Source: Saccharofermentanales bacterium
GTDB lineage: Bacteria; Bacillota; Clostridia; Saccharofermentanales; DTU023
NCBI GenBank assembly: GCA_050945515.1
Contig: JBMNTB010000001.1
Span: forward strand, 87,504-151,503
Reading direction: 5' to 3'
DNA length: 64,000 bases
Part shown: positions 28,222 to 55,451 of the stretch, one piece after another
Layout: each line of letters begins with the position of its first letter
How positions within the stretch are numbered: position 1 is the first letter of the stretch
The notes under the pieces: model-generated
Database searches by the model: none
What the model saw: only the letters and a program-made list of their open reading frames with translations
What the model was told of the DNA's origin: nothing
Program-made: the position numbers and the translations under genes

Positions 28222-28282
28222 GTTTGTGACGATCTATATTTAATCAGTTAGCAATGTTCACTAGAAATATATTTGCCGACAA

Positions 28283-28323: not shown

Positions 28324-28440
28324 GCTGAACATAGTCTTTTAACGCATATTTTACTCAAATATGATTAGAGTCCAACCCGGCAATTTTATAATCGAGTTGG
28401 TAATCAATCCTGTAACAAATTAGAAAGGGGATGATGGAAA

Positions 28441-29583: not shown

Positions 29584-29601
29584 ATTTGAAGACATTGATA
29601 A

Positions 29602-32067: not shown

Positions 32068-32111
32068 GGACGCCGACAATAGCTATTTAAATTTACGAAA
32101 GAACTCTGATA

Positions 32112-33104
32112 ATGCAACAAACTTTTTATGATTTTTCAGCATTTGAATTATTAAAAGATAAAAAACCGTTATTGGTGTGTGATGATGCTTTTGATTCATT
32201 TGGCATTGAGTTTCCTTGTGAAGTTACAAGATTCAGTGATTTCACTTCCAATCCGGATTATGAGGATATAAAGTCAGGAGTAAAAGTTTTAAGAAAGAAC
32301 AAATGTGACTTTATTGTAGCCATTGGCGGCGGGAGCAGCATCGACACCGCCAAGAGCATTAAATACTACAATCATATCAATCTGCCTCTAATGGCTGTCC
32401 CTACAACTTCCGGCACCGGCAGCGAAGCAACTCACTTTGCTGTCATATATAGAAACGGCAAAAAACAATCCGTTGCCGATGAAAGACTCTTGCCGGAATA
32501 TGTTATTTTACAGGCCGACACGCTCAAAACACTGCCCTTGTATCAAAAAAAGTGCACCATGCTTGATGCTCTCTGCCAGGCAATTGAGTCTTGGTGGTCA
32601 AAAAAAGCAACGCAAGAAAGCATTCTATATTCCCAAAAAGCCATCTATCTGATTCTCAGTAATATGGAAAGCTATTTGCATAATGATAATGATGGCAATA
32701 CTAAAATGCTTGTTGCTGCCAATTTAGCAGGCAAAGCGATCAATATCACTACTACAACCGCACCCCATGCTATGAGTTATAAGCTAACCTCCCTTTATGG
32801 ACTGCCGCATGGCCATGCTGTTGCTATCTGTCTGCCCAAAGTATGGCGGTACATGGAGAATTTTGATTACATCGCAAAGGCGCTGGGCACAGAACATTAT
32901 GAAGATGCGGTTTCACTTTTTGAGGAAATGCTGTTAGAACTGGAAATCTTGCCACCTCAAAACGTAAATGAGGACGATTTAGATATCCTGACCAATTCGG
33001 TAAATCGTCAAAGACTAAGCAACAATCCGGTTAGACTTAATAAAAGTACCATAAAAAAATTATATAAAGAGATTTTGGAGACTGAATATGGCGGAGAAAA
33101 TTAA
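32112..33104 (+). CDS. Short iron-containing alcohol dehydrogenase family protein; candidate phosphonoacetaldehyde/2-hydroxyethylphosphonate oxidoreductase or acetaldehyde reductase
   Basis: 330-aa ORF. IGGGSSIDTAKS motif, VPTTSGTGSE, and metal His residues (..APHAMSYKLTSLYGLPHGHAVA..). Its stop overlaps the phnX-phnW start by 17 nt. The substrate assignment is inferred from context only. Confidence 0.6.
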   Translation: MQQTFYDFSAFELLKDKKPLLVCDDAFDSFGIEFPCEVTRFSDFTSNPDYEDIKSGVKVLRKNKCDFIVAIGGGSSIDTAKSIKYYNHINLPLMAVPTTSGTGSEATHFAVIYRNGKKQSVADERLLPEYVILQADTLKTLPLYQKKCTMLDALCQAIESWWSKKATQESILYSQKAIYLILSNMESYLHNDNDGNTKMLVAANLAGKAINITTTTAPHAMSYKLTSLYGLPHGHAVAICLPKVWRYMENFDYIAKALGTEHYEDAVSLFEEMLLELEILPPQNVNEDDLDILTNSVNRQRLSNNPVRLNKSTIKKLYKEILETEYGGEN

Positions 33105-34920
33105 GGCAGTAATTTTCGATTGGGCCGGAACCACAGTAGACTATGGTTGTTTCGCACCGGTAAAAGGCTTTATAGATGGGTTTAACAGTATCGGTATAGA
33201 TATTACCAATGAAATGGCGCGCAAGCCGATGGGCTTATTGAAGATCGACCATACCAGGGCGATTGCCGCCATGCTGCCGGAGCCGATTTCCGAAGAACAA
33301 ATTTTACAGGCCTATGAAGTATTTGAAGAAACTCTCTTTACTAATATTGAACAGCACTGCGATATTAAGGACTATGTTACAGAAACAGTTGCTGCTCTGC
33401 GGGAGCAAGGAATCAAAATCGGTTCCACTACAGGGTACACAGCCGCTATGATGGAACGCGTTTTGCCCAAAGCTAAGGAGAATGGATTTTCCCCCGATTT
33501 CTGTATCAGTGCCGACCAGGTTGCCAAAGGCAGGCCGTATCCGTACATGATTTGGAATAATCTCATGCAGTTCGGCATTTCGGATCCGAGAGAAGCCATA
33601 AAAGTCGGGGATACAGTCGCTGATATAGCAGAGGGTAAAAATGCCGGTTGTTGGACTGCAGGTGTCATTATGGGCTCGTCGGAACTCGGACTTACACGCG
33701 ATGAAGTTGCCGCTTTGTCAGAAGAGGAGTTGAAAGAGCGAAAGACTATTGTGCGCGCAGCGTATTACAAGGCCGGAGCTGATTATATAATTGACGATAT
33801 GAACGAACTTTTAGATGTTATTGCCGATATAAACCGCAAACTGGATCAAAATGCTGCCCGGATTTTACTGACACCCGGTCCTCTGACAACACGCCATTCC
33901 GTGAAGCATGCTATGCTTACCGATCATTGCACCTGGGATGATACATATAAAGCGATCACAACTTCAGTGCTGAACGATATTACATATATTTCTGCCAACA
34001 ATGATTATGCTACCGTTTTATTGCAAGGCAGCGGTTCATATGCGGTAGAAGCCATGATCAATAGTCTGTGCGGGGAAAACGAAAAAATCCTGTTTTTAGT
34101 GAACGGCGAGTATGGCAGACGGATGTTAACTATTGCCGATAATTCGGGCAAAGATTATGAATGTTTAGTGTTTGACATGACCCGGCCGATAGATGTTTCA
34201 GTGGTTAAAGAAAGATTAAAAAAAGGCCCAAACATTGCTGTGGTTGTATTTGTTCATTGTGAAACCACAACCGGTATTATGAATCCTCTGGTAGAATTGA
34301 CGAAACTTGCCAAATCATATGGCGCTAAGGTTTTTGTCGATGCCATGTCCAGCTTTGCAGCTTATGAGATCGATATGCCGGGTCTTGATATTGATGCGCT
34401 GGCGGCAAGTTCCAACAAGTGTCTGGAAGGATTGCCCGGGCTGGCTTTTGTCATAGCGAAGAAAACACTGATAGAGGAGAGTTGCGGCAATTCTGTATCT
34501 CACAGTCTTGATCTGTTTGATCAATATCAAGGTTTATATGCGGGCGGCGGCAAGTTCCGCTTTACCTCGCCGACCAATGTCTTGCTGGCGCTGAGACAGG
34601 CGATTGACGAATATAAGAAAGAAGGCGGACTGATAGCCCGCAGAAAGCGCTATATGGCAAATAATGAAATTCTGGTGCGGGGACTCGAAAAACTTGGTAT
34701 CCGACCCATAATCGCACCTGAAAATCAATCCTATATTATTACAACCTTTGAACTGGGGAATCTTAATTTCGCCACGTTATACGAAGCACTTAAGTCCAAT
34801 GGATTTATTATCTATCCAGGCAAACTAACCTCAATGCCAACATTCAGATTGGGTAATATCGGCAATGTATATCCTGAGGATATGGTTGCGCTTGTAGCTG
34901 CCATCGAAGAATGTATTTGA
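33088..34920 (+). CDS. phnX-phnW: Fused phosphonoacetaldehyde hydrolase (PhnX, HAD) / 2-aminoethylphosphonate:pyruvate aminotransferase (PhnW)
   Basis: 610-aa single ORF. The N-terminal ~265 aa are PhnX-like (AVIFDWAGTTVDYGCFAP, KPMGLLKIDH, GSTTGY, GRPYPYM, KVGDTVADI). The C-terminal ~345 aa are PhnW-like (LLTPGPLTT, DHCTWDD, PLP-Lys region SSNKCLEGLPGLAFV). Confidence 0.85.
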   Translation: MAEKIKAVIFDWAGTTVDYGCFAPVKGFIDGFNSIGIDITNEMARKPMGLLKIDHTRAIAAMLPEPISEEQILQAYEVFEETLFTNIEQHCDIKDYVTETVAALREQGIKIGSTTGYTAAMMERVLPKAKENGFSPDFCISADQVAKGRPYPYMIWNNLMQFGISDPREAIKVGDTVADIAEGKNAGCWTAGVIMGSSELGLTRDEVAALSEEELKERKTIVRAAYYKAGADYIIDDMNELLDVIADINRKLDQNAARILLTPGPLTTRHSVKHAMLTDHCTWDDTYKAITTSVLNDITYISANNDYATVLLQGSGSYAVEAMINSLCGENEKILFLVNGEYGRRMLTIADNSGKDYECLVFDMTRPIDVSVVKERLKKGPNIAVVVFVHCETTTGIMNPLVELTKLAKSYGAKVFVDAMSSFAAYEIDMPGLDIDALAASSNKCLEGLPGLAFVIAKKTLIEESCGNSVSHSLDLFDQYQGLYAGGGKFRFTSPTNVLLALRQAIDEYKKEGGLIARRKRYMANNEILVRGLEKLGIRPIIAPENQSYIITTFELGNLNFATLYEALKSNGFIIYPGKLTSMPTFRLGNIGNVYPEDMVALVAAIEECI

Positions 34921-45691: not shown

Positions 45692-46627
45692 ATGAAACAT
45701 CGTACAACCGGGGCTGTGATTATCAGCTTGCTGACATGTGTGATCTGGGGTTTCAGTTTTTTATTCACAAGGAGTATAGTTATCCGCATTCACTTTTTAT
45801 CTTTATTGAGTTGGCGCTTTCTGATTGCGACACTGGCTTTTCTGCTCTTGATCCGGTTGAAGGTTTTCAAGGTCAATCTCAAGGGCAAAAAGCTCCGTCC
45901 GCTAATATATATCTCAATTGCCGAGCCGCTAATTTTTTTCACCTGTGAATCAATCGGACTGTATCTGACCTCAACCACCGAATCCAGCTTGATGATTGCT
46001 ACGATTCCGATCGTTACCATGCTGATCGGCATTCCTATCGCCGGAGAAATGCCGACTAAAAAGCAGGCCGTTGCCATTATCCTGTCCGTAGTGGGTGTAA
46101 TGGTGATCATTCTGGGACAGAGCAGGAGACTGGACTTTAATATTCTGGGCTATATTGTGCTCTTGATAGCAGTTATAAGCGGTTCGGTCTTTGCCGCCCT
46201 GTCCGCTAAATATAAGGAATATACCAGTGTGGAGAAGAGTTTTGCTATGATTGTGATCGGGCTGATCGGTTTTGGCAGTGCGGCGCTGATGCGCAATCTG
46301 GTGCGAGGCACGGTAAAAGAATGGTTGCTTCTGCCTGTTCAGGACCGCGAATTTCTGATCGCCATTCTGTATCTGGGTTTGCTGGCCTCGATCATCTGCT
46401 ATGTCGGCCAGCAGTACAGCCTCTCGGTTATAGGTTTAAACCGCAACACCTCTTTCTCCGGAGTAATTACTCTAACTTCCGTTTTGGCCGGTGTTTTTAT
46501 CCTGGACGAGAAACTTAGCCTTAGTATGTTAATTGGTGGTATCATTGTGATATTGGGTGTTTACGGTGTCAATTTCTACACACCGCAGCGAGAACACGAT
46601 AAAGCTATCTGTCCGCAGGACAAATAG
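45692..46627 (+). CDS. DMT-superfamily (EamA-like) transporter
   Basis: ORF 45665..46627. The ATG at 45692 lies 2 nt downstream of AGGAGGGG. About 10 TM helices arranged as two EamA-like halves. Confidence 0.75.
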   Translation: MKHRTTGAVIISLLTCVIWGFSFLFTRSIVIRIHFLSLLSWRFLIATLAFLLLIRLKVFKVNLKGKKLRPLIYISIAEPLIFFTCESIGLYLTSTTESSLMIATIPIVTMLIGIPIAGEMPTKKQAVAIILSVVGVMVIILGQSRRLDFNILGYIVLLIAVISGSVFAALSAKYKEYTSVEKSFAMIVIGLIGFGSAALMRNLVRGTVKEWLLLPVQDREFLIAILYLGLLASIICYVGQQYSLSVIGLNRNTSFSGVITLTSVLAGVFILDEKLSLSMLIGGIIVILGVYGVNFYTPQREHDKAICPQDK

Positions 46628-46651: not shown

Positions 46652-47812
46652 ATGAAAAAACTATTAGCGTTTTTCCTGGTACTGGTTTTGGTTTTCCCGA
46701 TCTTGGGTTGCCAATCTGATTCAGGTAGTGCCGAAACCACGGGAGCTGAGCCGGAGCAGACGGAGGCAGCCGGGGAAACTACGGTAGTTGAGCCGGAGCA
46801 GACGGAGGCAACCGGCGAGAAAAGGACATTGACCGTGGCCAACTGGCAGGGATATGGCTCTGATGCTGAATATGCTGTCAAGCCTTTTGAAGAAAAATAT
46901 AACTGTAAAGTTGTGCACCAATATTTTGATTCCGAAGAGGCATTGCTGAATATGCTCAGAACCGGCGGTCTGGGTGAAATAGATGTTGTCTTGCCTAATA
47001 TGGCCTATGTTGCTACCGGCAAGCGGGAAAATCTGTTTAGTCCTTTGGATAAGTCCAAACTTGAGAATTTTGAAGATTTGAAAGAAAATATCCGCGAACT
47101 TCCCGATGTCAAGGATGAAGAGGGCAATCTGTTGGGAGTTGCCTGGACCTGGGGTAGCACAGCACTCGGCTACAACCCGGATGCGGTATCTGAACCGATT
47201 AATTCCTGGGCAGCTCTCTGGGATCCTGCCAATAAAGGCAAGGTTGCCTATTTCGATGACCATCTCACGGCTGTCATGATCGCCGCGCTCTATTCCGGAC
47301 AGGATCCGGAGAATCCGGATCTCAATGTCATCAAAGAAGTACTGCTGCAACTAAAAGACAATACCAGATTATTCTGGTCCAGCTATGATTCTTTTGCCAA
47401 GCCCTATACGGCCGGTGAAATTACCATGGGCAGTGTCTGGTCCGGTGCCGCTACACAGCTCAATGCCGAAGGCGTCAAGATAGAGTATGTGTACCCCGCT
47501 GAGGGTGCAGTAATCTGGACTGACTACTGGTGCATCCCGGTAGACGCGCCGAATGAAGACCTGGCCTATGCCTGGATTAACTGGATGACTTCTGTGGAGT
47601 TTCAGTCAGAATATGCTTCCGATCTAGCCGCGCAGCCGCCGATCCCGGCCAATACCAAGGTATATGAGGTTCTGAGCCCTGAGGTCAGAGCAGCCCTCTA
47701 CATTGAAGATATAGAAGATATACCCAAAAAAGTGGCTTTCCAGAAAGAGCTGCCGCCGGAGGTCAATCAGGCCTGGCTCGATCTCTGGAATGAGGTCAAA
47801 GCTACAGATTAA
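46652..47812 (+). CDS. ABC transporter substrate-binding lipoprotein, PotD/PotF (polyamine-type) family
   Basis: ORF 46637..47812. The ATG at 46652 follows GGAGGA. Lipobox FPILGC. PotD-like core (..VANWQGY.., ..DVVLPNMAY.., ..WTWGSTALGYN.., ..YWCIPVDAPN..). Confidence 0.8.
   Translation: MKKLLAFFLVLVLVFPILGCQSDSGSAETTGAEPEQTEAAGETTVVEPEQTEATGEKRTLTVANWQGYGSDAEYAVKPFEEKYNCKVVHQYFDSEEALLNMLRTGGLGEIDVVLPNMAYVATGKRENLFSPLDKSKLENFEDLKENIRELPDVKDEEGNLLGVAWTWGSTALGYNPDAVSEPINSWAALWDPANKGKVAYFDDHLTAVMIAALYSGQDPENPDLNVIKEVLLQLKDNTRLFWSSYDSFAKPYTAGEITMGSVWSGAATQLNAEGVKIEYVYPAEGAVIWTDYWCIPVDAPNEDLAYAWINWMTSVEFQSEYASDLAAQPPIPANTKVYEVLSPEVRAALYIEDIEDIPKKVAFQKELPPEVNQAWLDLWNEVKATD
46733..46816 (+). repeat. 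42-bp tandem duplication encoding the post-lipobox linker ETTGAEPEQTEAAG/ETTVVEPEQTEATG
   Basis: 46733-46774 versus 46775-46816. The core GAGCCGGAGCAGACGGAGGCA is identical in both copies. Confidence 0.9.
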
Positions 47813-47881
47813 GATCTATCATGGGCAAAAGGACGGGAATAACATAGTTTCCGTCTGCCGGCGCTGCTTTAGGGGGAGAGT

Positions 47882-48736
47882 ATGATGACAAAGTCAAGGA
47901 TAAAGACCTGGTTGCTCATGCTGCCTGGAGCCGGTACCTTGTTATCACTCGTCCTTTTGCCTTTATCACTACTACTTTTGTTCAGCCTTGTTACAGGTAA
48001 TCAAATCAGTCTGAGCGGAGCGCTCAGCTTTAAGAATTATCTCAATATCTTTAAGCAAGGTCTCTTTGGCCCGCTGATGTGGAAGTCAATCCGCATGGGT
48101 CTGCTGGTGACGGCCAGTTCAATTCTGATCGGCTATCCGGTTGCCTACGGTCTGGCGAAAGTTGTCAAGCCCAGATGGCGCAATTTCCTGGTAGTCATGA
48201 TCATCATTCCCTTTTTTACCTCGCAGCTGCTATTAATATATTCGCTGATGGTAATGCTGCAGTCACAGGGTCCGGTCATGACTTTTCTGGCCTTGTTCGG
48301 TCTGGATCCGACCCGCTCCATACTCTATAGCAATACCGCCGTCTATTTGATCTTGCTCTATCAGTTCCTGCCCTATATGGTGCTGTCACTGTTTTCCTCT
48401 CTGGTCAAGATAGATGACAATGTCGTATTTGCGGCCAGGAGCATGGGAGCCAGTCGGAGACGTGTTTTCATTGATATTATTTTACCCTTGACCGCTCCGG
48501 CGCTGCTCTCGGGCATTATTCTGGTTTTTATTCCGGTGGCGGGCAGTTTCGTCGAATCCAATCTGGCCGGCGGCACCAAGGGTATGATGATCGGTTCCCT
48601 GATTGACTCTAATTTTTCGGTTTCTCTGAATATGGGACGTGGTTGTGCACTTTGTGTTTTATTCTTGCTGATCATGTCCGTTCTGACCTTCATTTTGCAA
48701 AGAGCTATCAGATATCTGGAGAGGAGACGGCTGTGA
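47882..48736 (+). CDS. ABC transporter permease (PotB-like)
   Basis: 284-aa ORF with 6 TM helices and EAA-type loop ..DDNVVFAARSMGASRRRVFIDIILPL.. Confidence 0.85.
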   Translation: MMTKSRIKTWLLMLPGAGTLLSLVLLPLSLLLLFSLVTGNQISLSGALSFKNYLNIFKQGLFGPLMWKSIRMGLLVTASSILIGYPVAYGLAKVVKPRWRNFLVVMIIIPFFTSQLLLIYSLMVMLQSQGPVMTFLALFGLDPTRSILYSNTAVYLILLYQFLPYMVLSLFSSLVKIDDNVVFAARSMGASRRRVFIDIILPLTAPALLSGIILVFIPVAGSFVESNLAGGTKGMMIGSLIDSNFSVSLNMGRGCALCVLFLLIMSVLTFILQRAIRYLERRRL

Positions 48737-49518
48737 GAAAGCGTGCTCCCTGGCTGAAGCTGATGATGGTGCTGACCTATCTGTTTTTGTTTGCACCGAT
48801 TATTGTCGTGATGGTAATGAGTTTCAATACTTCACAGTACGGAACTCTGCCCTTTGTTTTTACAACCGGCTGGTATCAGCGCCTGCTGTCAGGTGTCGGT
48901 CTGGGCAAGGCCACCTGGCTCTCGATCTGGTTTTCGTTTCTGGTCACATTGGCCGGCAGCTTGGTTGGTATCCTGACCAGTCTGGGTCTGCGCAGACTGC
49001 CTGAGGCTTGGGCCCGCCGCTTCATTTCCTGGCTCAATCTGGCGGTAATTATTCCCTGGCTGGTGCTGGGTATCGCCCTGCTGATGATTTTCAATTTTGT
49101 CGGCCTGGGCCGCTCATATACGGGTATGTTCCTAGGCAATTTTGTCTGTGTTTTGCCCTATGTAGTCATGCTGGTCTATCCTGCCCTGATGGCACTGGAC
49201 AAGAATGTGGAATATGCGGCCCGAACCCTGGGAGCCTCACCCCGCCGGACATTGGTGACAATTGTGCTGCCGTCGTTGTTGCCGGCGATCTTGACTTCAT
49301 CCCTGATGGCCTTTATGGTTTGCTTTAATAATTTTGTCATCCAATACTATCTGGCACCCTTTGGCATCAGGACTCTGCCTATGGAAATCTATAATCTGGT
49401 GCGTGTGGGTTATAAACCGGATATCAACGCCCTGGCAACGATTATGATTCTGGTTTCCGTTTCACTGGTTCTACTGGTCAACAAATTGGGCTATGGCAGT
49501 AAAAAAGGATTATTCTGA
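48733..49518 (+). CDS. ABC transporter permease (PotC-like)
   Basis: ORF 48643..49518. The GTG at 48733 overlaps the upstream stop (GTGA) and gives VRKRAPWLKLMMVL... EAA loop ..DKNVEYAARTLGASPRRTLVTIVLPS.. Confidence 0.85.
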   Translation: MRKRAPWLKLMMVLTYLFLFAPIIVVMVMSFNTSQYGTLPFVFTTGWYQRLLSGVGLGKATWLSIWFSFLVTLAGSLVGILTSLGLRRLPEAWARRFISWLNLAVIIPWLVLGIALLMIFNFVGLGRSYTGMFLGNFVCVLPYVVMLVYPALMALDKNVEYAARTLGASPRRTLVTIVLPSLLPAILTSSLMAFMVCFNNFVIQYYLAPFGIRTLPMEIYNLVRVGYKPDINALATIMILVSVSLVLLVNKLGYGSKKGLF

Positions 49519-49519
49519 T

Positions 49520-50056
49520 ATGAAGAGGGCCTTGCTGGTGATCGATATGCAGCGTGTCTATGCGCCCGGCGGCGCCTGGCAGACGCCGGGATTTGAGAAG
49601 GCTGCCGCCAATATCACTAAACTATGTCCTCTATTTGAGCATAGATTATTTACCCGCCATTTGCCTTTCCCAGATCCGCCGGGCCGCTGGCAAAACTATA
49701 ATGCCGCATTCGCCTCGATTAATGCAGATCAGGAAGCAGCGCTGCTAATTCCGGATCTGGATCGGTTTGAATATTTGGATTTCCCCAAATATACTTATTC
49801 TGCCTTGGCGTCCGGTGAGCTGAAATCATTTCTGCTGACTGAAGACTTTGCTGAAATTTTGCTTACAGGAGTGCAAACCGAATTTTGTGTTACAGCGACT
49901 TTATTGCAGGCGGTTGATCTGGGGCTGCCGGTCACCTTGGTGCCTGATGCCTGCGCCGGTGACTTGCCTGTGTTCGAAGCCGCTCTGATTGCCCTGGTCA
50001 GACGCATGCCCTGTCAAGTTCAGCTAAAATATACAGAGGAATTATTGCATGGCTAG
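49520..50056 (+). CDS. Isochorismatase-family cysteine hydrolase (amidase-type)
   Basis: ORF 49493..50056. The ATG at 49520 lies 1 nt after the permease stop. ALLVIDMQ (catalytic Asp region) and GVQTEFCVTAT (nucleophile Cys). About 178 aa. Confidence 0.75.
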   Translation: MKRALLVIDMQRVYAPGGAWQTPGFEKAAANITKLCPLFEHRLFTRHLPFPDPPGRWQNYNAAFASINADQEAALLIPDLDRFEYLDFPKYTYSALASGELKSFLLTEDFAEILLTGVQTEFCVTATLLQAVDLGLPVTLVPDACAGDLPVFEAALIALVRRMPCQVQLKYTEELLHG

Positions 50057-51080
50057 TTTAGAGATCAGAAATGTCACTAAAAGTTTTGGCCCGAAAGTAG
50101 TGTTGAGGGATATCTCATTCACAGCACAGAGCGGGGAATTCCTAGCGCTGTTGGGTCCGTCCGGCTGTGGCAAGACGACTCTGCTTAAGATTATTTCCGG
50201 CATTGAAGAGCAAGACAGCGGCTCGATCCTGATCGCCGATCGGGATATCAGCCGGGAGCCGATTGAAAAACGCAATATCGGCCTGGTATTTCAAAATTAC
50301 GCATTATTTGAACATATGAATGTGTTTGAGAATATTGCCTATTCCTTGCGGATGCGCAAAGTTGCCAAAGCCGAAATCAGGGACAGAGTAGTGGAAGCCT
50401 TGGAGACGGTGCGCCTGGCCGGCTATGAACAAAGACCCACAACTCAGCTGTCAGGTGGTGAACAGCAGCGGGTGGCACTGGCCAGGGCTATTGTCTATAA
50501 GCCTGATATTCTGTTGCTTGATGAGCCGCTGTCAGCTTTGGATCGTAGAATCAGGGAACAGATGCAGGAGGAAGTATTGCGTATCCAGCGCGAGACAGGT
50601 ATTACCACTGTCTTTGTCACGCATGACCAGGGGGAAGCTCTGGCTATGGCTGATCGCATCCTGCTGATGAACGAAGGAGAAATCGTGGAAGATAATTTGC
50701 CGACGGAAGTCTATCTGCGCCCCAGATCTCAGTTCGCTGCGGAATTTGTGGGCAATTCCAATCTTCTGAGCGGCACTTATCAGGACGGATATGTCATCGG
50801 CGATGGTTTCAAAATTCCACTGGAGCAGACTTTCCCGGCCGGGACCGCTTTGACTCTGATGATCAAAGAGGAGAATATTATTCTTTGTCCTGCCGGCGAG
50901 GGTATGGGAGAGGGCGTCGTCACTGAAGTTTTTTTCCAAGGCACTACTATGAGAGTTACGCTGACCAACAAAGAGATTGAACTTAAGATAAGATTGCTGG
51001 CCCGGGAGGGAATGTCGATCGAGCAGGGTCAGACCCTGGGCTGGCGCGTACAGTTTGCTGCCGTCTTTCCGAATGATTGA
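50049..51080 (+). CDS. ABC transporter ATP-binding protein (PotA-like, with C-terminal TOBE-like regulatory domain)
   Basis: 343-aa ORF overlapping the hydrolase gene by 8 nt. Walker A GPSGCGKTT, LSGGEQQRVALARA, LLLDEPLSALD. Confidence 0.9.
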   Translation: MASLEIRNVTKSFGPKVVLRDISFTAQSGEFLALLGPSGCGKTTLLKIISGIEEQDSGSILIADRDISREPIEKRNIGLVFQNYALFEHMNVFENIAYSLRMRKVAKAEIRDRVVEALETVRLAGYEQRPTTQLSGGEQQRVALARAIVYKPDILLLDEPLSALDRRIREQMQEEVLRIQRETGITTVFVTHDQGEALAMADRILLMNEGEIVEDNLPTEVYLRPRSQFAAEFVGNSNLLSGTYQDGYVIGDGFKIPLEQTFPAGTALTLMIKEENIILCPAGEGMGEGVVTEVFFQGTTMRVTLTNKEIELKIRLLAREGMSIEQGQTLGWRVQFAAVFPND

Positions 51081-51103
51081 TTGCAACTGGATGAGGAGAG
51101 TCT

Positions 51104-53311
51104 ATGTATAATATTTCTGCAGATCGCTTTTTCAATACCTGGAGCACCAAAAGCCCTGCGGTGCTGGAGTTTTTGCCGGCCAGGTTTCTGGTTGTGCCGG
51201 GTGCGTACAGCTTCGCCACCGGCGAATATACCGAGTTTCCATTTTCCGACCGCATCAAATTATATGAACATGATCATGAGGCTCGTTATCTGCGCCTGAC
51301 CATGGAGCATGCGGGCACAGTTCTCCAGTTACAGTATTGGAAGCAAGATCCCTGGACTGTACGGGGCAGGCTGGAAGTCTTGGCGCATGGCGAGTGGGGG
51401 CTGCGTTTTATGACCACTCTGGCTTTCGGTTTTGCCGCAAATGGCACAGTTCAAAGAACAAATGACGGTTTTGATCTGAGCTACCGCAGCTATCATTTCG
51501 GTGTCGCTTTCGCCGACAGACCGGTCCGCGCCTGTCTGGCCCCAACCAGCTCCTATATGGGTCAGGAAATGGAAAAGAATGGTTATTATGCTCCTTTCAC
51601 CGATGCTGCCGACCCCTTGTATCTCAACACTACTTTTAATCTGGAAGAGACGCCGGTGCTTGATTTTGCTCTGGCCGTGACCAATCATCCGCAGACTGCC
51701 GCCGACAAGGCTGCAGCTGCTTTGCAATTGTCAGAGAACGCTTTATCCGACATTAAGTCCAATCTGGATCAAGCCCTGGCGATGGAAGGCCGTTTTGCCA
51801 GTTGTGCTGCTGCCTTGCGCGATGTCATGTCCTGGAATGCGATTGCCGACCATGTTAATAGCAGAGTTTTTACTTCGCTGACCCGTTTTTGGATCGATAA
51901 AAAGTTTGGCGGCTGGTTCCTCTGGCTGGATGATGTTTTCTATCATGCCTTGATCTCAGCCTGGTCCGGCGACTGGCAGATGGCAGAGAACAATCTGAAA
52001 GCGGCGATGGGCAATGCGGTTCCGGCCGGCAATCTGGCCTGTCTGATGTCCGAATTTACCGAATGGGTTGATCGTTCCCAGCCGCCGGTATTCAGCTTCA
52101 TGGTCTGGAAATACTATCAGCTGACACATGATCTGAACTTGCTGGCTCGGGTCTTTCCCACTTTGCTGGCAGCTCATAACTGGTGGTTTGCCCATCGCGA
52201 CGGCAATGGGAATGGTGTACTCGAACTCGGCAGCTCCGCCCTCTGCGGTGACGGTCATTTCAAGCAGACGAAATTGGCCTGCAAAGACGAAGCGGCGATG
52301 GACAACAGTCCTATGTATGATCCGGCAGTCTTTGTGCCGCAGGCCGGTACCATGGACATGGAAGATATCGCGCTTAACAGTCTTTTGGTCCTGAATGCGG
52401 AAGCTCTGGCTCGGATCGCGGAAGTACTGGGCCACTATGAGATCGCCGCCGATCTGTTAGACAGACGCGAGCAACATAAAGAGAGAATCAATCAGTGCCT
52501 CTGGGATGAGGAGCGTGGGCTCTATGCCAATCGCCTCTGGAGCGGTGAATTTGTCAGTCCGTCGCCCACCAGCTTTTATCCTCTGGCCGCCGGTATCCCG
52601 GATCGGGAGCGGGCAGATATTCTGATCCGCCATATCTTTGACGAAGACGAATTCTGGACTAAAGCGCCTTTACCCTCGATCTGGGCCCGGGACGAGGCCG
52701 TTCATGACGATGTCTACTGGCGTGGCCGCATGTGGCCGCCATTGAATTTCTTTACTTATGTCGGCCTGCAGCGCTATGGCTATGAGGTGGAAGCACAGCG
52801 ATTGGCGGCCAGAAGTGCTGAAGTTTTTACCAATGCCTTCGATAATGAAAGAGCTTGTTACGAGAACTACAATACTTTCACCGCTGTCGGCAAAAGTGTC
52901 GATGCCGATCCTTTCTATGGCTGGGGTGCGCTCCTGCCTCTGATGTGGGTAATGAATTTCGCGGACAGCAGTGACGAAGGCCTCGACTTCGGCGCCGTCG
53001 ATAATGAAGCGATGGAGCTAAAACAGCTCAGAACGCATCAAGGAACTTTTGATCTGTCGCTGGGCGCCACAACAGAAGTTCGTTTGAACGGCGAAACGGT
53101 CTTTGTCTCCAATGCCTCAGGTCGCTTCAGGGATTTCAAGCTGCAGGACAATTATGCTTCTGTGATTGTGCCGGCACAGCAATGCGATGTCTATGTGGAT
53201 TTCCCGCAGCTGGAACCTTTGCTGGTCAGGATTAACGGTACCGAGATCGAAGCTGCGAACAAACTGCAACTATCAGCCGGCGAGGAGCAGAATATTGAGC
53301 TCTGGTTCTGA
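51104..53311 (+). CDS. (alpha/alpha)6-barrel glycoside hydrolase, clan GH-G-like (GH63/GH37/MGH1-like)
   Basis: 735-aa ORF with RBS GAGGAG. Trehalase/GH63-like signatures DRSQPPVF and YWRGRMWPPLNFF, plus ..FYGWGALLP.. No signal peptide. The family call is from motifs only. Confidence 0.6.
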   Translation: MYNISADRFFNTWSTKSPAVLEFLPARFLVVPGAYSFATGEYTEFPFSDRIKLYEHDHEARYLRLTMEHAGTVLQLQYWKQDPWTVRGRLEVLAHGEWGLRFMTTLAFGFAANGTVQRTNDGFDLSYRSYHFGVAFADRPVRACLAPTSSYMGQEMEKNGYYAPFTDAADPLYLNTTFNLEETPVLDFALAVTNHPQTAADKAAAALQLSENALSDIKSNLDQALAMEGRFASCAAALRDVMSWNAIADHVNSRVFTSLTRFWIDKKFGGWFLWLDDVFYHALISAWSGDWQMAENNLKAAMGNAVPAGNLACLMSEFTEWVDRSQPPVFSFMVWKYYQLTHDLNLLARVFPTLLAAHNWWFAHRDGNGNGVLELGSSALCGDGHFKQTKLACKDEAAMDNSPMYDPAVFVPQAGTMDMEDIALNSLLVLNAEALARIAEVLGHYEIAADLLDRREQHKERINQCLWDEERGLYANRLWSGEFVSPSPTSFYPLAAGIPDRERADILIRHIFDEDEFWTKAPLPSIWARDEAVHDDVYWRGRMWPPLNFFTYVGLQRYGYEVEAQRLAARSAEVFTNAFDNERACYENYNTFTAVGKSVDADPFYGWGALLPLMWVMNFADSSDEGLDFGAVDNEAMELKQLRTHQGTFDLSLGATTEVRLNGETVFVSNASGRFRDFKLQDNYASVIVPAQQCDVYVDFPQLEPLLVRINGTEIEAANKLQLSAGEEQNIELWF

Positions 53312-53410
53312 GCATCTGCCGCCGGAATTAGAACGGCTGTTGTCGATTGTTTAATGACTTGGACGGTTGAGCAATTTGCTGCACCCGGATATTGTATAAG
53401 TGAGTAGATC

Positions 53411-54349
53411 GTGCGTATTATTAATCTGGGATCTTTAAATCTGGACTATAGCTATCGCGTGCCGCGCTTTGTGCGCCCCGGTGAAACTATGGAGGCCGAC
53501 AGTTTTTCACTCAAGGCTGGCGGCAAAGGTCTAAACCAATCCATCGCCGCTGCTAAAGCAGGACTTGAAGTTTACCAGGCGGGATGCGTCGGGCCGGATA
53601 GCGCCCTGCTGTTTGAGGAGCTGGAACAAAATGGTGTGGATACTTCGCTGATTCAGACCGGCGCGGATGCTACCGGCCATGCCATCATCCAGGTCGCCGC
53701 CAGCGGTGAAAACAGCATTTTGATCTACGGCGGCGCCAATCGAACTTTAACCCTAGAGTATATTAACAGCGTACTGGCGCATTTTGCGCCCGGTGATGTC
53801 TTGTTGCTCCAAAATGAAATTAATCTCGTACCGGAGATTATATTCGAGGCTGACCGCCGTGGTCTGAGGATTGCTTTCAATGCGGCGCCGCTGACTTCTG
53901 ATGTCAGAACATACCCGCTGGATAAGCTGAGCTGGCTGATGGTAAATGAAGTAGAGGGTGAGGCTCTCACCGGCGAAACAGATCATCTCGCTATCATTAA
54001 ACAGTTGAGATTGAGCTATCCGCAGACAATGCCGGTTGTAACTGTCGGTGCTGCCGGCGTCCTGGCCGCAGATAGCGAAAATATTTACACTCTGTCCGCC
54101 TATCCGCTGCAGCCCGTAGATACTACGGCGGCAGGCGATACTTTTAACGGTTATTTTCTCAGTGCAGTCCTGGCAGATTATTCCTTGCCGAAGGCATTGG
54201 AGCTCAGCACAGCCGCCAGCGCTCTCTGCGTGTTAAATCAGGGTGCAGCTGTCTCGATTCCCCGGCGGGAGCAGGTGCTGGCTTTCATGCAGGAGAACCC
54301 CCCTGCCACATTGACGGCTGAAATAATACCGTTCCCCATCCGAGGTTAG
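53411..54349 (+). CDS. PfkB-family sugar kinase, ribokinase-like
   Basis: 312-aa ORF with GTG start. GGKGLNQSIAAAKAG (ribokinase-type N-terminal motif), NEVE, and DTTAAGDTFNG (PfkB signature 2). Confidence 0.8.
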   Translation: MRIINLGSLNLDYSYRVPRFVRPGETMEADSFSLKAGGKGLNQSIAAAKAGLEVYQAGCVGPDSALLFEELEQNGVDTSLIQTGADATGHAIIQVAASGENSILIYGGANRTLTLEYINSVLAHFAPGDVLLLQNEINLVPEIIFEADRRGLRIAFNAAPLTSDVRTYPLDKLSWLMVNEVEGEALTGETDHLAIIKQLRLSYPQTMPVVTVGAAGVLAADSENIYTLSAYPLQPVDTTAAGDTFNGYFLSAVLADYSLPKALELSTAASALCVLNQGAAVSIPRREQVLAFMQENPPATLTAEIIPFPIRG

Positions 54350-54353
54350 AACA

Positions 54354-54521
54354 ATGAAACCACAGAAGACGAAATCAGCGGCGCTCAAAATTTGGCTGCT
54401 CCGAGTGACTATCCTGGCTCTGGCGCTTGTTGGCATCATAGTCGGTATTAATCGCCAGGAAGTAAGAACCATGTTTAGTAAGGCGATCCGTATTTGCCTG
54501 GAATGCATTGGCTTGGGTTAG
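54354..54521 (+). CDS. Small membrane protein with C-terminal CXXC motif (CD1871A-like mini-protein)
   Basis: Below the ORF-track cutoff. My translation is MKPQKTKSAALKIWLLRVTILALALVGIIVGINRQEVRTMFSKAIRICLECIGLG (55 aa), with one TM helix and CLEC near the C-terminus. It starts 4 nt after the kinase stop and ends directly before the polyferredoxin gene. The family name is recalled from memory. Confidence 0.55.
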   Translation: MKPQKTKSAALKIWLLRVTILALALVGIIVGINRQEVRTMFSKAIRICLECIGLG

Positions 54522-54533
54522 GTGGTGCTGTTG

Positions 54534-55451
54534 ATGGCCAAGCAAAAGCGTAAAATTAAGATCAAGAAAAGACATCTGATCCAGGCACTGGGTGCCCTGG
54601 CTCTGAATGGACATCTCAGCGGTTTTGTGACGGGCAATATCTACACCGGTGCCAGCAAACAAATCTGTCTGCCGGTGCTTAATTGCTACTCTTGTCCCGG
54701 GGCGCTTACTTCCTGCCCTATTGGCTCACTGCAGGCTGTTGCCAATCATCCCGGCTTCAGCTTTAGTTACTATATTATGGGTCTGATCGCCTTATTCGGT
54801 ATTCTGGCCGGGAGATTCTACTGTGGTTGGCTATGCCCTTTCGGCTTCCTGCAAGATTTATTGGCCAAAATAAGTAAAAGAAAGCTGCGGGTCAAAGCCA
54901 AGTATGACCGACTTCTGCGCTATTTAAAATATATTATTTTGATTTTCTTGGTTCTGCTCCTGCCGGCAGTACTGACCAATTCCTACGGAATCGGATCACC
55001 TCTGTTTTGTAAATATATTTGTCCGTCCGGTACACTGGGAGCCGGCTTGCCGCTCCTCCTGCTGACGCCTGCTCTGCGGCCGAATGCAGGGATGCTCCTG
55101 GCCTGGAAAGTGCTCTTGGCTCTGGCTATCATCTTGGCCTGCATATACATAACCCGCGCTTTCTGCCGCTATGCCTGCCCTTTGGGAGCGTTGCTCGGTC
55201 TGCTGCAGATTGCCAGCTTCTATCGTTTTTCTTACAACAAGAATAGATGTATTTCTTGCCGGCAGTGCATAACTGTATGCCCAATGGGAATTGATCCGAT
55301 GGCGACGCCGAACAGCCCGGAATGTATCCGTTGCCGCGAATGTATACATGTCTGCCCGACTACCTCACTGACTAGCAGTCTGCCGGGCAAGACTTTGCCG
55401 AAGGAGATATTGTTCGTGGGTGGGAAGTCGGGTCGATCCGACCCTGCCTGA
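54534..55451 (+). CDS. NapH/MauN-like integral-membrane 4Fe-4S (polyferredoxin) protein
   Basis: ORF 54522..55451, with GTG 54522 or ATG 54534 as the start. CX3CP-type motifs (CYSCPG, SCPIG, CGWLCPFG, CKYICPSG, CRYACPLG) interleave with TM helices. Two ferredoxin motifs at the C-terminus (CISCRQCITVCP and CIRCRECIHVCP). Confidence 0.75.
   Translation: MAKQKRKIKIKKRHLIQALGALALNGHLSGFVTGNIYTGASKQICLPVLNCYSCPGALTSCPIGSLQAVANHPGFSFSYYIMGLIALFGILAGRFYCGWLCPFGFLQDLLAKISKRKLRVKAKYDRLLRYLKYIILIFLVLLLPAVLTNSYGIGSPLFCKYICPSGTLGAGLPLLLLTPALRPNAGMLLAWKVLLALAIILACIYITRAFCRYACPLGALLGLLQIASFYRFSYNKNRCISCRQCITVCPMGIDPMATPNSPECIRCRECIHVCPTTSLTSSLPGKTLPKEILFVGGKSGRSDPA

What the first reader, a model, noticed from the sequence alone, without database searches (positions are those of the whole stretch)
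46652..55451. PotABCD-type importer with an embedded isochorismatase-family hydrolase, linked to a GH-G-like glycosidase, a ribokinase-like kinase, a CXXC mini-protein and a NapH-like polyferredoxin
Gene order is SBP, permease, permease, cysteine hydrolase, ATPase, glycoside hydrolase, PfkB kinase, 55-aa CXXC protein, membrane polyferredoxin. The junctions are very tight. The permeases overlap (GTGA). The hydrolase starts 1 nt after the permease stop. The ATPase overlaps the hydrolase by 8 nt. The glycosidase starts 23 nt after the ATPase. The mini-ORF starts 4 nt after the kinase stop, and the polyferredoxin start abuts the mini-ORF stop. Only the 99-nt gap before the kinase could hold an internal promoter. 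A catalytic enzyme gene inside the transporter gene set is unusual for polyamine-type importers. The combination of amidase-type hydrolase, cytoplasmic (no signal peptide) (alpha/alpha)6 glycosidase and ribokinase-like kinase points to uptake and stepwise breakdown of a nitrogen-containing glycoside. Candidates are an amide- or ureido-linked sugar conjugate, or a ribosylated or glycosylated amine, rather than a free polyamine. I cannot name the substrate. I know of no characterised pathway with this composition.
Basis: partly seen in the sequence, partly recalled or inferred. Interest (0 to 1): 0.65.

Follow-up and report, generated by a model that had tools for sequence, protein, structure and literature searches.

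The report
Riboside uptake locus with GH63-like hydrolase
This is a gene cluster, conserved across many bacterial phyla, that most likely imports a ribose-containing compound (best guess: the vitamin-B3 forms nicotinamide or nicotinate riboside), splits it with a glycosidase of a type never shown to do this, and feeds the ribose into metabolism.

Summary
Seven form a real unit. In 51 genome loci with enough flank, the GH63-like hydrolase sits beside a full PotABCD-like importer in 47, the isochorismatase-family amidase in 32 and a PfkB kinase in 28. The CXXC mini-protein and polyferredoxin follow in only 2 of 51. Elsewhere they form an autonomous pair next to a redoxin gene, so they are neighbours, not parts.

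The released sugar is most likely ribose. The kinase keeps all ribokinase ribose-site residues. Relatives add a D-ribose pyranase (RbsD) and a LacI-type repressor. In one subclade the hydrolase sits inside a Bmp/PnrA nucleoside-type ABC operon, where a nucleoside hydrolase would be expected.

The aglycone is probably a pyridine carboxamide or carboxylate. One Bacillota locus runs straight into Eubacterium barkeri-type nicotinate fermentation genes. Several alphaproteobacterial loci carry a nicotinate-dehydrogenase-like enzyme, and three carry enamidase.

The binding protein keeps PotD's aromatic box but loses key acidic residues. The amidase keeps its Asp-Lys-Cys triad but lacks the nicotinamidase metal site.

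Best model (inferred, untested): uptake, deamidation and hydrolysis of nicotinamide or nicotinate riboside. I found no published description.

The parts
46652..47812 (+). Lipoprotein substrate-binding protein of the PotD/PotF fold. The ORF opens at 46637, but the RBS favours 46652. It has a lipobox (ILGC) followed by an acidic linker with a 42-nt tandem duplication.
   Evidence: Pfam SBP_bac_8 at 6e-39. NCBIfam PotD scores 127.6 bits against a cut-off of 582. The best PDB match is PotD 1pot at 1.5e-36. The pocket comparison is, the RBS and the repeat.
47882..48736 (+). ABC permease, PotB-like.
   Evidence: Pfam BPD_transp_1. The PotB equivalog scores 174.6 bits against a cut-off of 348. It is linked to the GH in 49 of 51 loci.
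48733..49518 (+). ABC permease, PotC-like. It overlaps the previous gene by 4 nt.
   Evidence: Pfam BPD_transp_1. The PotC equivalog scores 161.3 bits against a cut-off of 326. It is linked to the GH in 49 of 51 loci.
49493..50056 (+). Isochorismatase-family cysteine amidohydrolase embedded in the transporter genes (alternative start 49520). Its proposed role is deamidation of the carboxamide of the imported riboside or of its aglycone.
   Evidence: PF00857 at 1e-20. The D18/K99/C132 triad is conserved in 41-43 of 43 orthologues. The family profile's best PDB hit is P. horikoshii nicotinamidase at 5.9e-23, but the metal ligands are absent. It lies next to the GH in 32 of 51 loci.
50049..51080 (+). 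ABC ATPase, PotA/PhnT2-like.
   Evidence: Pfam ABC_tran at 4e-39. The best NCBIfam models all fall below their cut-offs. It is linked to the GH in 49 of 51 loci.
51104..53311 (+). Cytoplasmic 735-aa GH63-like glycosidase. It has an N-terminal beta-sandwich (1-195), an (alpha/alpha)6 barrel (about 230-617) and a C-terminal beta-sandwich (620-735). It is the proposed riboside hydrolase.
   Evidence: Pfam MGH1-like_GH at 5e-45, plus Trehalase and GH63 C-terminal domains. The AF2 model has pLDDT 92 and pTM 0.92. The best Foldseek hit is YgjK at 3e-27 with 16% identity. E587 aligns with the YgjK base E727, and the YWRGRxW motif is shared. D400 lies in the invariant DEAAMDNSP motif.
53411..54349 (+). 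Ribokinase-like PfkB kinase.
   Evidence: PfkB at 2e-42. TIGR02152 ribokinase scores 215.6 bits against a cut-off of 299.65. The best PDB hits are all ribokinases, down to 2e-40. The N10, D12, G38, K39, N42, E136 and D243 motifs are invariant in 38 linked kinases. The L083 orthologue passes the ribokinase equivalog at 320.9 bits.
54354..54521 (+). 55-aa CD1871A-family CXXC membrane mini-protein. It is adjacent to the conserved unit but not part of it.
   Evidence: NF040920 scores 55.7 bits against a cut-off of 32. It follows the cluster only in L001 and L002. The same mini-ORF, with the ICLECIG motif, precedes polyferredoxin homologues in unrelated contexts.
54522..55451 (+). Membrane polyferredoxin with NapH-like architecture. 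It is the partner of the mini-protein and is not part of the conserved unit.
   Evidence: Two Fer4_5 domains plus Fer4. NapH TIGR02163 scores 82.5 bits against a cut-off of 213. More than 5000 homologues exist. In L091 and L092 the gene sits with a CXXC ORF and a Redoxin/AhpC-TSA gene, with no sugar genes nearby.

Best explanation
Genes 46652-54349 form one functional unit for the uptake and cleavage of a ribose glycoside. The most likely substrate is a pyridinium riboside: nicotinamide riboside (NR), nicotinate riboside (NaR), or both.

Proposed steps:
1. A PotD-fold lipoprotein captures the cationic riboside. It keeps the cation-pi aromatic box and two aspartates but has lost the residues that clamp polyamine amines. 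The PotBC/PotA-like ABC system then imports the riboside.
2. The metal-free isochorismatase-family cysteine amidase removes the carboxamide nitrogen. This converts NR to NaR, or nicotinamide to nicotinate.
3. The cytoplasmic GH63-like (alpha/alpha)6 glycosidase hydrolyses the ribosyl bond and releases ribose and the pyridine base.
4. The ribokinase converts ribose to ribose-5-phosphate. Relatives also carry the RbsD pyranase.
5. The base goes to NAD salvage. In genomes that carry the adjacent genes, it goes into nicotinate catabolism.

What is shown and what is inferred:
- Shown: gene content, conservation of the linkage, catalytic residues, the ribose-specific companion genes and the nicotinate-catabolic neighbours.
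- Inferred: the identity of the substrate, the order of steps 2 and 3, and the claim that the GH cleaves a riboside.

The CXXC protein and polyferredoxin downstream are a separate redox module.
For: 1. Linkage. Among 51 loci with at least 5.5 kb upstream and 2.5 kb downstream of a GH orthologue, 47 have the full importer, 32 the amidase and 28 the kinase. They span Bacillota, Spirochaetota, Alphaproteobacteria, Gammaproteobacteria, Terriglobia and Verrucomicrobiia.

2. Ribose.
- RbsD lies adjacent in L003, L004, L005, L013-L018, L083, L086, L087, L088 and L090.
- The L083 RbsD passes the D-ribose pyranase equivalog (157 bits, cut-off 93). The L083 PfkB passes the ribokinase equivalog (320.9 bits, cut-off 299.65).
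- The ribose-site residues are invariant in 38 linked kinases.
- In L014 and L087 the GH lies between RbsD and a Bmp/PnrA nucleoside-type ABC system, followed by PfkB.

3. Nicotinate.
- In L083 the GH is followed 22 nt later by nicotinate fermentation genes. These include an Hgd-like gene, a FAD subunit, a 2Fe-2S subunit, aconitase-type DmdAB, a B12 mutase and PrpF.
- The Mo subunit in that run matches E. barkeri nicotinate dehydrogenase NdhL (2e-152) plus NdhM (4e-99). The next-best family scores 371 bits.
- L084 (= L024), L021 and L031 carry a Mo-hydroxylase, a conserved 491-aa unknown protein, AbpE and two AA_synth genes. L036 carries the first two of these, and L025 (short contig) the Mo-hydroxylase only.
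- Enamidase is found in L084/L024 (2vun, 1.2e-114, full length), L021 and L028.
- The L084 Mo domain matches NdhL plus NdhM at 275 + 238 bits, against 319 bits for the next family.

4. Binding protein. W70, Y73, W268, W294, D208 and D296 are conserved in 52-57 of 57 orthologues. The PotD residues E36, Y85 and Y293 are replaced by G, A and A, and E171 is T or E.

5. Amidase. The triad is intact. The nearest solved structure is a nicotinamidase. The pyridine-N metal site is missing. That is what one would expect if the ring nitrogen is ribosylated (inference).

6. Hydrolase. The catalytic base and the GH63 signature are conserved.

7. Chemical precedent, from my own knowledge and not tested here. 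Classical glycosidases hydrolyse glycosyl-pyridinium salts (Sinnott). Clan GH-G already contains a beta-furanosidase family, GH100.
Against: - No GH63-like or clan GH-G enzyme is known to cleave ribosides or N-glycosidic bonds.
- The GH keeps the GH63 -1 subsite signature (YWRGRxW, ENY). That signature is associated with hexopyranosides.
- All characterised nicotinamidases have the metal site that this amidase lacks. Its score against nicotinamidase is only slightly better than against other cysteine hydrolases.
- Nicotinate genes lie next to the cluster in only about 8 of 80 loci, and not in this window.
- The window kinase is below the ribokinase equivalog cut-off.
- No NAD-salvage gene (pncB, nadR, pnuC) or NAD regulator was seen in any neighbourhood examined.
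- I could not inspect the model's pocket because the coordinates are not exposed.
Confidence: 0.5

Rival explanations
1. The cluster imports and hydrolyses a ribose glycoside, but the aglycone is not a pyridine. It could be an ordinary or modified purine or pyrimidine nucleoside (for example a cationic methylated nucleoside), an aminoimidazole-carboxamide riboside, or an O-riboside. The amidase would then act on a different amide or ureido group.
For: - The RbsD, ribokinase and Bmp/PnrA contexts point to ribose but do not specify the base.
- Most loci have no nicotinate genes nearby.
- The amidase lacks the nicotinamidase metal site. It also hits biuret hydrolase, RutB and YecD-like models weakly.
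Against: - Where a catabolic pathway is fused to the cluster, it is for nicotinate in two distant phyla.
- The Mo-hydroxylases miss every xanthine dehydrogenase equivalog cut-off.
- A PotD-fold cation-pi box is an odd choice for neutral nucleosides.
Confidence: 0.25
2. The GH is a conventional GH63-type alpha-glucosidase or alpha-mannosidase. It would act on an imported nitrogen-containing hexoside, for example a glycosyl-amine, or mannosylglyceramide or another compatible solute. The amidase trims an amide. The PfkB kinase phosphorylates the product or is merely co-regulated.
For: - Pfam MGH1-like_GH, GH63 and Trehalase hits, plus conserved GH63 catalytic motifs.
- The structural nearest neighbours are all alpha-gluco- or alpha-mannosidases.
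- Distant SBP relatives bind sugar-amine opines: mannopine 5l9s and agropine 6hly.
Against: - No hexokinase, glucokinase or glycerate kinase is linked.
- The linked sugar genes are ribose-specific: an RbsD equivalog, a ribokinase equivalog and invariant ribose-site residues.
- The GH is embedded in a nucleoside-type ABC operon in L014 and L087.
- Identity to any characterised GH63 is only 13-22%.
Confidence: 0.12
3. The transporter is a true polyamine (PotABCD) importer, and the hydrolase, glycosidase and kinase are unrelated neighbours.
For: The best named hits for the four transporter proteins are PotD, PotB, PotC and PotA. PotD is the closest solved SBP.
Against: - All scores are far below the equivalog cut-offs.
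- E36, Y85 and Y293 are replaced family-wide, and E171 is not conserved.
- The transporter-GH linkage holds in 47 of 51 loci across phyla, with the amidase interleaved inside the transporter genes.
Confidence: 0.03

Closest known systems
Bacterial nucleoside and ribose utilisation operons (Bmp/PnrA or RbsABC importer, IUNH-type nucleoside hydrolase, RbsK, RbsD, LacI-type RbsR)
   Same: The logic is the same: import a riboside, hydrolyse it in the cytoplasm, then convert the ribose with pyranase and ribokinase under a LacI-family repressor. A subclade of the GH (L014, L087) sits inside exactly such a Bmp-type operon.
   Different: The hydrolase is a GH63-like (alpha/alpha)6 protein and not an IU_nuc_hydro-fold enzyme. 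In most loci the importer is of the PotABCD class. An isochorismatase-family amidase is added.
GH63 glycosidases (E. coli YgjK, Thermus mannosylglycerate hydrolase TTHA0978, ER alpha-glucosidase I)
   Same: Both have an N-terminal beta-sandwich plus an (alpha/alpha)6 barrel. They share the YWRGRxW motif and the ENY motif with its catalytic Glu. The Pfam GH63 C-terminal and MGH1-like domains score above their cut-offs.
   Different: Identity is only 13-22%. This protein has an extra C-terminal beta-sandwich (620-735). It is cytoplasmic. Its genomic partners point to ribose and not to glucose or mannose. It is far below the NCBIfam YgjK equivalog cut-off (117.5 bits against 625).
PotABCD / PotFGHI polyamine importers
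   Same: The four-gene architecture, the fold and the aromatic box of the binding protein (PotD W34, Y37, W229, W255, D168 and D257 are retained).
   Different: PotD residues E36, S83, Y85 and Y293 are replaced by G, N, A and A family-wide, and E171 is T in the window. All equivalog cut-offs are missed by two- to five-fold. The importer is always linked to a glycosidase.
Nicotinamidase PncA (isochorismatase superfamily)
   Same: It is the best-scoring solved relative (1im5/1ilw). It shares the Asp-Lys-Cys triad and the cis-peptide region (GV.T..CV). In some genomes the gene is associated with nicotinate catabolism.
   Different: There is no Asp/His metal-binding site. Family-specific invariant tryptophans are present (W29 and W66 in the ORF from 49493; these are W20 and W57 of alignment A2). 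NCBIfam PRK11609 scores 34.6 bits against a cut-off of 174.
Eubacterium barkeri nicotinate fermentation cluster, and the enamidase route in Alphaproteobacteria
   Same: Orthologues of nicotinate dehydrogenase, enamidase, 2-methyleneglutarate mutase-type B12 protein, PrpF-type isomerase and DmdAB lie directly downstream of the GH cluster in L083, L084 and related loci.
   Different: These genes are absent from the window. They serve here only as guilt-by-association evidence for the aglycone.

Membership tests
PotABCD spermidine/putrescine importer | The binding protein reaches the PotD or PotF equivalog score. | tested here: not met
   PotD scores 127.6 bits against a cut-off of 582. PotF scores 115.9 bits against 636.
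PotABCD spermidine/putrescine importer | The polyamine-contact residues of PotD are present (W34, E36, Y37, S83, Y85, D168, E171, W229, W255, D257, Y293; residue list from my knowledge of the PotD structure papers). | tested here: not met
   The aromatic box, D168 and D257 are kept. E36 is replaced by G72, S83 by N121, Y85 by A123, E171 by T211 and Y293 by A332. The first, second, third and fifth of these hold family-wide in 57 sequences.
PotABCD spermidine/putrescine importer | The permeases and the ATPase reach the PotB, PotC and PotA equivalog scores. | tested here: not met
   Scores against cut-offs are 174.6 against 348, 161.3 against 326 and 342.1 against 482.
GH63 (clan GH-G) glycosidase | An (alpha/alpha)6 catalytic barrel preceded by a beta-sandwich N-domain. 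| tested here: met
   The AF2 model has pLDDT 92. The top Foldseek hits are YgjK and glucosidase I, at 3e-27 to 1e-19.
GH63 (clan GH-G) glycosidase | A catalytic base Glu equivalent to YgjK E727. | tested here: met
   E587 in the ENYN motif aligns with the QENYN motif of YgjK at residue 727. It is invariant in 25 sequences.
GH63 (clan GH-G) glycosidase | A catalytic acid Asp equivalent to YgjK D501. | tested here: inconclusive
   HMMER did not align this region. D400 in the conserved [DN]E[AS][AS]MDNSP motif resembles the GH63 'ESG(M/L)D(N/D)' acid motif as I recall it. It is conserved in at least 90% of sequences.
GH63 (clan GH-G) glycosidase | Alpha-glucosidase or mannosyl-/glucosylglycerate hydrolase activity. 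| not testable with these tools
   This needs an enzyme assay. Genomic context argues for a different substrate.
IUNH-type nucleoside hydrolase | The IU_nuc_hydro fold or domain. | tested here: not met
   None of the nine proteins has such a Pfam hit. The GH would be a functional analogue, not a member.
Nicotinamidase PncA | The Asp-Lys-Cys catalytic triad. | tested here: met
   D18, K99 and C132 are conserved in 43, 41 and 43 of 43 sequences.
Nicotinamidase PncA | A divalent-metal site (Asp and His ligands) that binds the pyridine nitrogen. | tested here: not met
   The region that aligns with the P. horikoshii D52/H54 ligands reads T-R-(H/F)...P with no Asp or His pair.
Nicotinamidase PncA | The NCBIfam equivalog score is reached. 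| tested here: not met
   PRK11609 scores 34.6 bits against a cut-off of 174.
Ribokinase RbsK | The ribose-contact and catalytic residues are present (E. coli N14, D16, G42, K43, N46, E143, D255; from my knowledge of structure 1RKD). | tested here: met
   N10, D12, G38, K39, N42, E136 and D243 are invariant in 38 cluster-linked kinases.
Ribokinase RbsK | The TIGR02152 equivalog score is reached. | tested here: not met
   The window protein scores 215.6 bits against a cut-off of 299.65. The L083 orthologue scores 320.9 bits and passes.
NapH quinol dehydrogenase subunit | The NapH/MauN family score is reached and nap genes lie nearby. | tested here: not met
   TIGR02163 scores 82.5 bits against a cut-off of 213. 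No nap genes are nearby.
CD1871A-family CXXC protein | The NF040920 domain score is reached and the C-terminal CxxC motif is present. | tested here: met
   The score is 55.7 bits against a cut-off of 32. The ICLECIG motif is invariant in 5 sequences.

The most novel reading that the evidence does not exclude
The 735-aa protein founds a family of clan GH-G (GH63-like) enzymes whose substrate is a pyridinium N-riboside (nicotinate or nicotinamide riboside). Its partners are a metal-free isochorismatase-fold 'NR deamidase' and a PotD-fold NR/NaR-binding protein. Together they would form a previously unrecognised and widespread bacterial route for scavenging or catabolising vitamin-B3 ribosides in gut and soil communities.
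Probability: 0.35. Interest if true: 0.8.

Novelty: new variant of a known kind. Interest (0 to 1): 0.62.

Why it matters
If the model holds, it assigns a function to a large orphan branch of GH63-like proteins. They are currently annotated as 'putative isomerase' or 'trehalase family glycosidase'.

It would add N-riboside (or at least riboside) hydrolysis to the chemistry of clan GH-G. It would extend the ligand range of PotD-fold binding proteins to a cofactor precursor. It would also identify an amidase that may act on the riboside and not on free nicotinamide.

Carriers include human-gut Clostridia (Lawsonibacter, Dorea, Oscillibacter, Christensenella, Guopingia). The locus could therefore bear on how the microbiota processes dietary or supplemental nicotinamide riboside.

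The direct fusion to nicotinate catabolism in Alphaproteobacteria also flags a conserved but unannotated gene set that may complete the enamidase-type pathway in aerobes. That set is a 491-aa protein, AbpE and two AA_synth genes.

Tried and rejected
- Polyamine importer. Rejected on equivalog scores, pocket residues and conserved synteny.
- CXXC protein and polyferredoxin as part of the pathway. Rejected. They follow the cluster in only 2 of 51 loci and form an autonomous pair with a redoxin gene elsewhere.
- Crude six-frame ORF clustering of all loci to find further conserved neighbours. High-GC genomes gave antisense artefacts, so I replaced it with tblastn using defined queries and with Pfam-annotated contigs.
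- The 468-aa unknown protein of L083 and the 491-aa unknown protein of L084 as homologues, for example a shared 6-hydroxynicotinate reductase. They show no similarity.
- The palindrome at 46605-46627 as an operator. It is a single copy and is not conserved in relatives.
- Literature searches. I searched for GH63 + isochorismatase, MGH1-like, ribofuranosidase, NR + ABC/SBP, NR hydrolases in gut bacteria, and enamidase clusters. None described this system.
- Promoter and terminator scan. Counts were close to the shuffle expectation, and the + strand terminator-like hits lie inside coding regions.
- AFDB fold search. The library was unavailable.
- Pocket inspection of the AF2 model. This was impossible because coordinates are not returned.

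Full report
**Observation**

- The two permeases overlap by 4 nt.
- The ATPase overlaps the hydrolase by 8 nt.
- 23 nt precede the glycosidase and 99 nt precede the kinase.
- 4 nt precede the mini-ORF, and the polyferredoxin start abuts the mini-ORF stop.

The hydrolase may start at 49493 or at 49520.

Pfam and NCBIfam confirm every domain call:
- a PotD/PotF-like SBP
- PotB- and PotC-like permeases
- an isochorismatase-family protein
- a PotA/PhnT2-like ATPase
- an MGH1-like/GH63/trehalase-type glycosidase
- a ribokinase-like PfkB kinase
- a CD1871A-family CXXC protein
- a Fer4_5 polyferredoxin with NapH-like architecture

The flanking genes are housekeeping: trpS and an EamA transporter upstream, and an EF-G-like GTPase downstream. 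The window is about 95% identical at protein level to a Saccharofermentanales MAG (L001).

**Is the linkage conserved?**

I built a profile from 25 full-length GH homologues and scanned one genome per species. At least 563 loci encode a relative, and the best 80 were fetched. I then ran tblastn with the window proteins. Among the 51 loci with enough flank:

| Component next to the GH | Loci (of 51) |
|---|---|
| Both permeases and the ATPase | 49 |
| SBP as well (full importer) | 47 |
| Isochorismatase-family gene | 32 |
| PfkB kinase | 28 |
| CXXC gene and polyferredoxin | 2 (L001, L002; the closest relatives) |

The carriers are diverse:
- Bacillota: Lawsonibacter, Dorea, Oscillibacter, Christensenella, Guopingia, Dethiosulfatibacter
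- Spirochaetota
- many Alphaproteobacteria: Dongia, Inquilinus, Labrys, Lichenihabitans, Acidisoma
- Terriglobia and Verrucomicrobiia

In Firmicutes the amidase is repeatedly found between the second permease and the ATPase, as in the window (L001-L004, L046, L089, L090). In Alphaproteobacteria the order is SBP-permease-permease-ATPase-amidase-GH-kinase.

**The downstream pair is a separate module**

The polyferredoxin belongs to a very large family, with more than 5000 hits at E ≤ 1e-20. In Paraclostridium bifermentans (L091) and a Desulfotomaculum (L092) it is preceded by two genes and no sugar genes:
- a 45-52-aa ORF with the same C-terminal ICLECIG(L/I)G motif
- a Redoxin/AhpC-TSA gene

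It misses the NapH family cut-off (82.5 bits against 213). I treat 54354-55451 as an adjacent redox module, even though only 4 nt separate it from the kinase.

**Which sugar?**

Several lines point to ribose.
- The kinase's best solved relatives are all ribokinases.
- The residues that contact ribose in E. coli RbsK (list from my knowledge of structure 1RKD) are invariant in 38 cluster-linked kinases.
- Many relatives add a D-ribose pyranase gene, a LacI-type repressor, or both. Examples:
  - L083 and L086: LacI-PfkB-RbsD-SBP-permease-permease-ATPase-GH
  - L088: LacI-SBP-...-GH-PfkB-RbsD
  - L090: LacI-PfkB-SBP-permease-permease-amidase-ATPase-GH-RbsD
- In L083 both PfkB and RbsD pass NCBI's equivalog cut-offs for ribokinase and ribose pyranase.
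- In a GH subclade (L014, L087) the PotABCD-type importer is replaced by a Bmp/PnrA nucleoside-type ABC system. The order there is RbsD-GH-Bmp-ATPase-permease-permease-PfkB, with a divergent LacI gene.

So two unrelated importers have been coupled to the same GH, ribokinase and pyranase. The GH sits where a nucleoside hydrolase normally sits. I therefore infer that the GH releases D-ribose.

**Which aglycone?**

The evidence points to nicotinate or nicotinamide.

In L083 the GH is followed after 22 nt, on the same strand, by this run of genes:
- a 3-hydroxyisobutyrate-dehydrogenase-type gene
- the FAD and 2Fe-2S subunits of a Mo-hydroxylase, and its Mo subunit
- an aconitase-type large and small subunit pair (the small one passes the LeuD/DmdB family model)
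- a B12-binding mutase
- a PrpF-family gene

The Mo subunit matches E. barkeri nicotinate dehydrogenase NdhL (2e-152, 512 bits) plus NdhM (4e-99, 336 bits). The next-best family scores 371 bits. From my knowledge of the E. barkeri cluster (Alhapel et al. 2006), this gene set is the nicotinate fermentation pathway.

Independently, several alphaproteobacterial loci place related genes next to the GH cluster:
- L084 (= L024), L021 and L031 carry a Mo-hydroxylase, a conserved 491-aa unknown protein, AbpE and two AA_synth genes.
- L036 carries the Mo-hydroxylase and the 491-aa protein.
- L025, on a short contig, carries the Mo-hydroxylase only.
- An amidohydrolase that matches enamidase is found in L084/L024, L021 and L028. 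The L084 copy matches enamidase 2vun at 1.2e-114 over its full length.
- The L084 Mo domain scores 275 + 238 bits against NdhL plus NdhM, and 319 bits against the next family.

None of these hydroxylases reaches a xanthine dehydrogenase equivalog cut-off. The association is present in only about 8 of 80 loci and is absent from the window. Where a downstream pathway is attached, however, it is for nicotinate.

**The three distinctive proteins**

*Binding protein.* Alignment to PotD and to 56 orthologues shows which PotD positions survive.
- Kept in 52-57 of 57 sequences: the aromatic box (W70, Y73, W268, W294) and two aspartates (D208, D296).
- Replaced: PotD E36, S83, Y85 and Y293 become G, N, A and A.
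- Not conserved: E171, which is T in the window and T or E across the family.

This looks like a cation-pi site without the polyamine amine clamps. That is compatible with a pyridinium riboside, but the compatibility is inference.

*Amidase.* The Asp-Lys-Cys triad is intact in essentially all orthologues. The family profile's best solved hit is P. horikoshii nicotinamidase at 5.9e-23. Other cysteine hydrolases follow closely. The Asp/His metal site is absent. In nicotinamidases that site binds the pyridine nitrogen (my knowledge). A ribosylated ring nitrogen cannot ligate a metal. I therefore propose, speculatively, that the enzyme deamidates NR to NaR.

This would also explain why L083 lacks the amidase yet feeds nicotinate dehydrogenase directly. 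It could do so by importing NaR.

*Glycosidase.* The AF2 model is confident (pLDDT 92, pTM 0.92). It shows an N-terminal beta-sandwich, an (alpha/alpha)6 barrel and an extra C-terminal beta-sandwich. Foldseek finds YgjK, ER glucosidase I and the Thermus mannosylglycerate hydrolase at 13-22% identity.

E587 aligns with the YgjK base E727, and the YWRGRxW signature is shared. D400 sits in a conserved DEAAMDNSP motif that resembles the GH63 acid motif. HMMER did not align that motif, so the equivalence is inconclusive. There is no signal peptide, so the enzyme is cytoplasmic.

**Mechanistic plausibility and caveats**

Two precedents, both from my own knowledge and not tested here, make riboside hydrolysis conceivable:
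- Glycosidases are known to hydrolyse glycosyl-pyridinium salts without acid catalysis.
- Clan GH-G includes a furanosidase family, GH100.

The caveats are these:
- No clan member is known to cleave ribosides.
- The retained GH63 -1 subsite motifs could mean a pyranoside substrate. RbsD linkage would also fit release of ribopyranose.
- The model's coordinates are not exposed, so I could not examine the pocket.
- No NAD-salvage genes or NAD-responsive regulators were seen nearby.
- A large 5'-nucleotidase with only a faint NadN-type hit lies near L090.

**Comparison with known systems and novelty**

The unit works like a nucleoside/ribose utilisation operon, but it uses non-canonical parts:
- a PotD-fold receptor
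- a GH63-like hydrolase in place of an IUNH enzyme
- a metal-free isochorismatase-fold amidase

It fails the membership tests for PotABCD, for YgjK-type equivalogs and for PncA. It meets the fold and catalytic-base criteria of GH63. Eight full-text searches found no description of it. Public annotations call the GH 'putative isomerase' or 'trehalase family glycosidase'.

**Verdict**

The conserved catabolic unit for a nitrogenous glycoside is right, and the ribosylated-amine option is favoured. Including the CXXC and polyferredoxin pair is wrong.
- I classify the finding as a new variant of a known kind of system.
- Confidence is about 0.75 that it is a riboside uptake and cleavage locus.
- Confidence is about 0.5 for the full NR/NaR model.
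- Interest is 0.62. The predicted enzymology would be new for its clan and is directly testable in cultured carriers.

Noticed in passing
window 54354-55451; L091 2761-4831; L092 2697-4831: The CD1871A-type CXXC mini-protein (invariant ICLECIG motif) and the Fer4_5 polyferredoxin form a widely conserved gene pair. In Paraclostridium and Desulfotomaculum the pair is preceded by a roughly 360-aa Redoxin/AhpC-TSA protein. This suggests an uncharacterised membrane thiol/Fe-S redox module.
   Followed up: partly
L084 15908-19380 (also L021, L031, L036): Alphaproteobacteria conserve a block next to a nicotinate-dehydrogenase-like enzyme. The block is a 491-aa protein with no Pfam or NCBIfam hit, an AbpE_bact protein and two AA_synth (PF06684) proteins. 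Where the sequence extends far enough, enamidase is also adjacent. These genes may encode the missing steps of an aerobic enamidase-type nicotinate pathway, for example 6-hydroxynicotinate reduction.
   Followed up: partly
L081 13214-13966 (-); L084 20685-21419 (-); L027; L048: A second, longer (244-250 aa) isochorismatase-family gene lies close to the cluster in several Alphaproteobacteria. In L084 it sits beside enamidase. It had no NCBIfam hit, and its role is unknown.
   Followed up: no
L014 9542-17983; L087 9492-18138: A GH subclade (36-37% identity to the window protein) is embedded in a Bmp/PnrA-type ABC operon instead of a PotABCD-type one. The order is RbsD-GH-Bmp-ATPase-permease-permease-PfkB. 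The subclade may have a different riboside specificity.
   Followed up: partly
L090 16385-20335 (-): A 1316-aa duplicated Metallophos/5'-nucleotidase protein, with a faint NadN_nucleosid_C hit, lies 4 kb from the riboside cluster. It is possibly an extracellular nucleotidase that generates ribosides.
   Followed up: no
window 46733-46815: A 42-nt tandem duplication (2 copies, 90% match) encodes a repeated acidic Thr/Glu-rich linker directly after the SBP lipobox.
   Followed up: partly
window 46605-46627: A 10-3-10 palindrome (CTATCTGTCCGCAGGACAAATAG) overlaps the end of the EamA gene, 25 nt before the SBP start. It is a single copy in the window and is absent from related loci, so it is probably not a conserved operator.
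   Followed up: yes
window 24000-34920: This stretch has low GC (0.42-0.44, against about 0.50 elsewhere) and lies downstream of tRNA-Asp and tRNA-Phe (23788-23970). It carries a GGDEF protein, a phosphonate-type ABC importer (a Phosphonate-bd SBP, an ATPase and two permeases), an Fe-alcohol dehydrogenase and a fused HAD hydrolase/class-V aminotransferase. This looks like a 2-aminoethylphosphonate utilisation island.
   Followed up: partly
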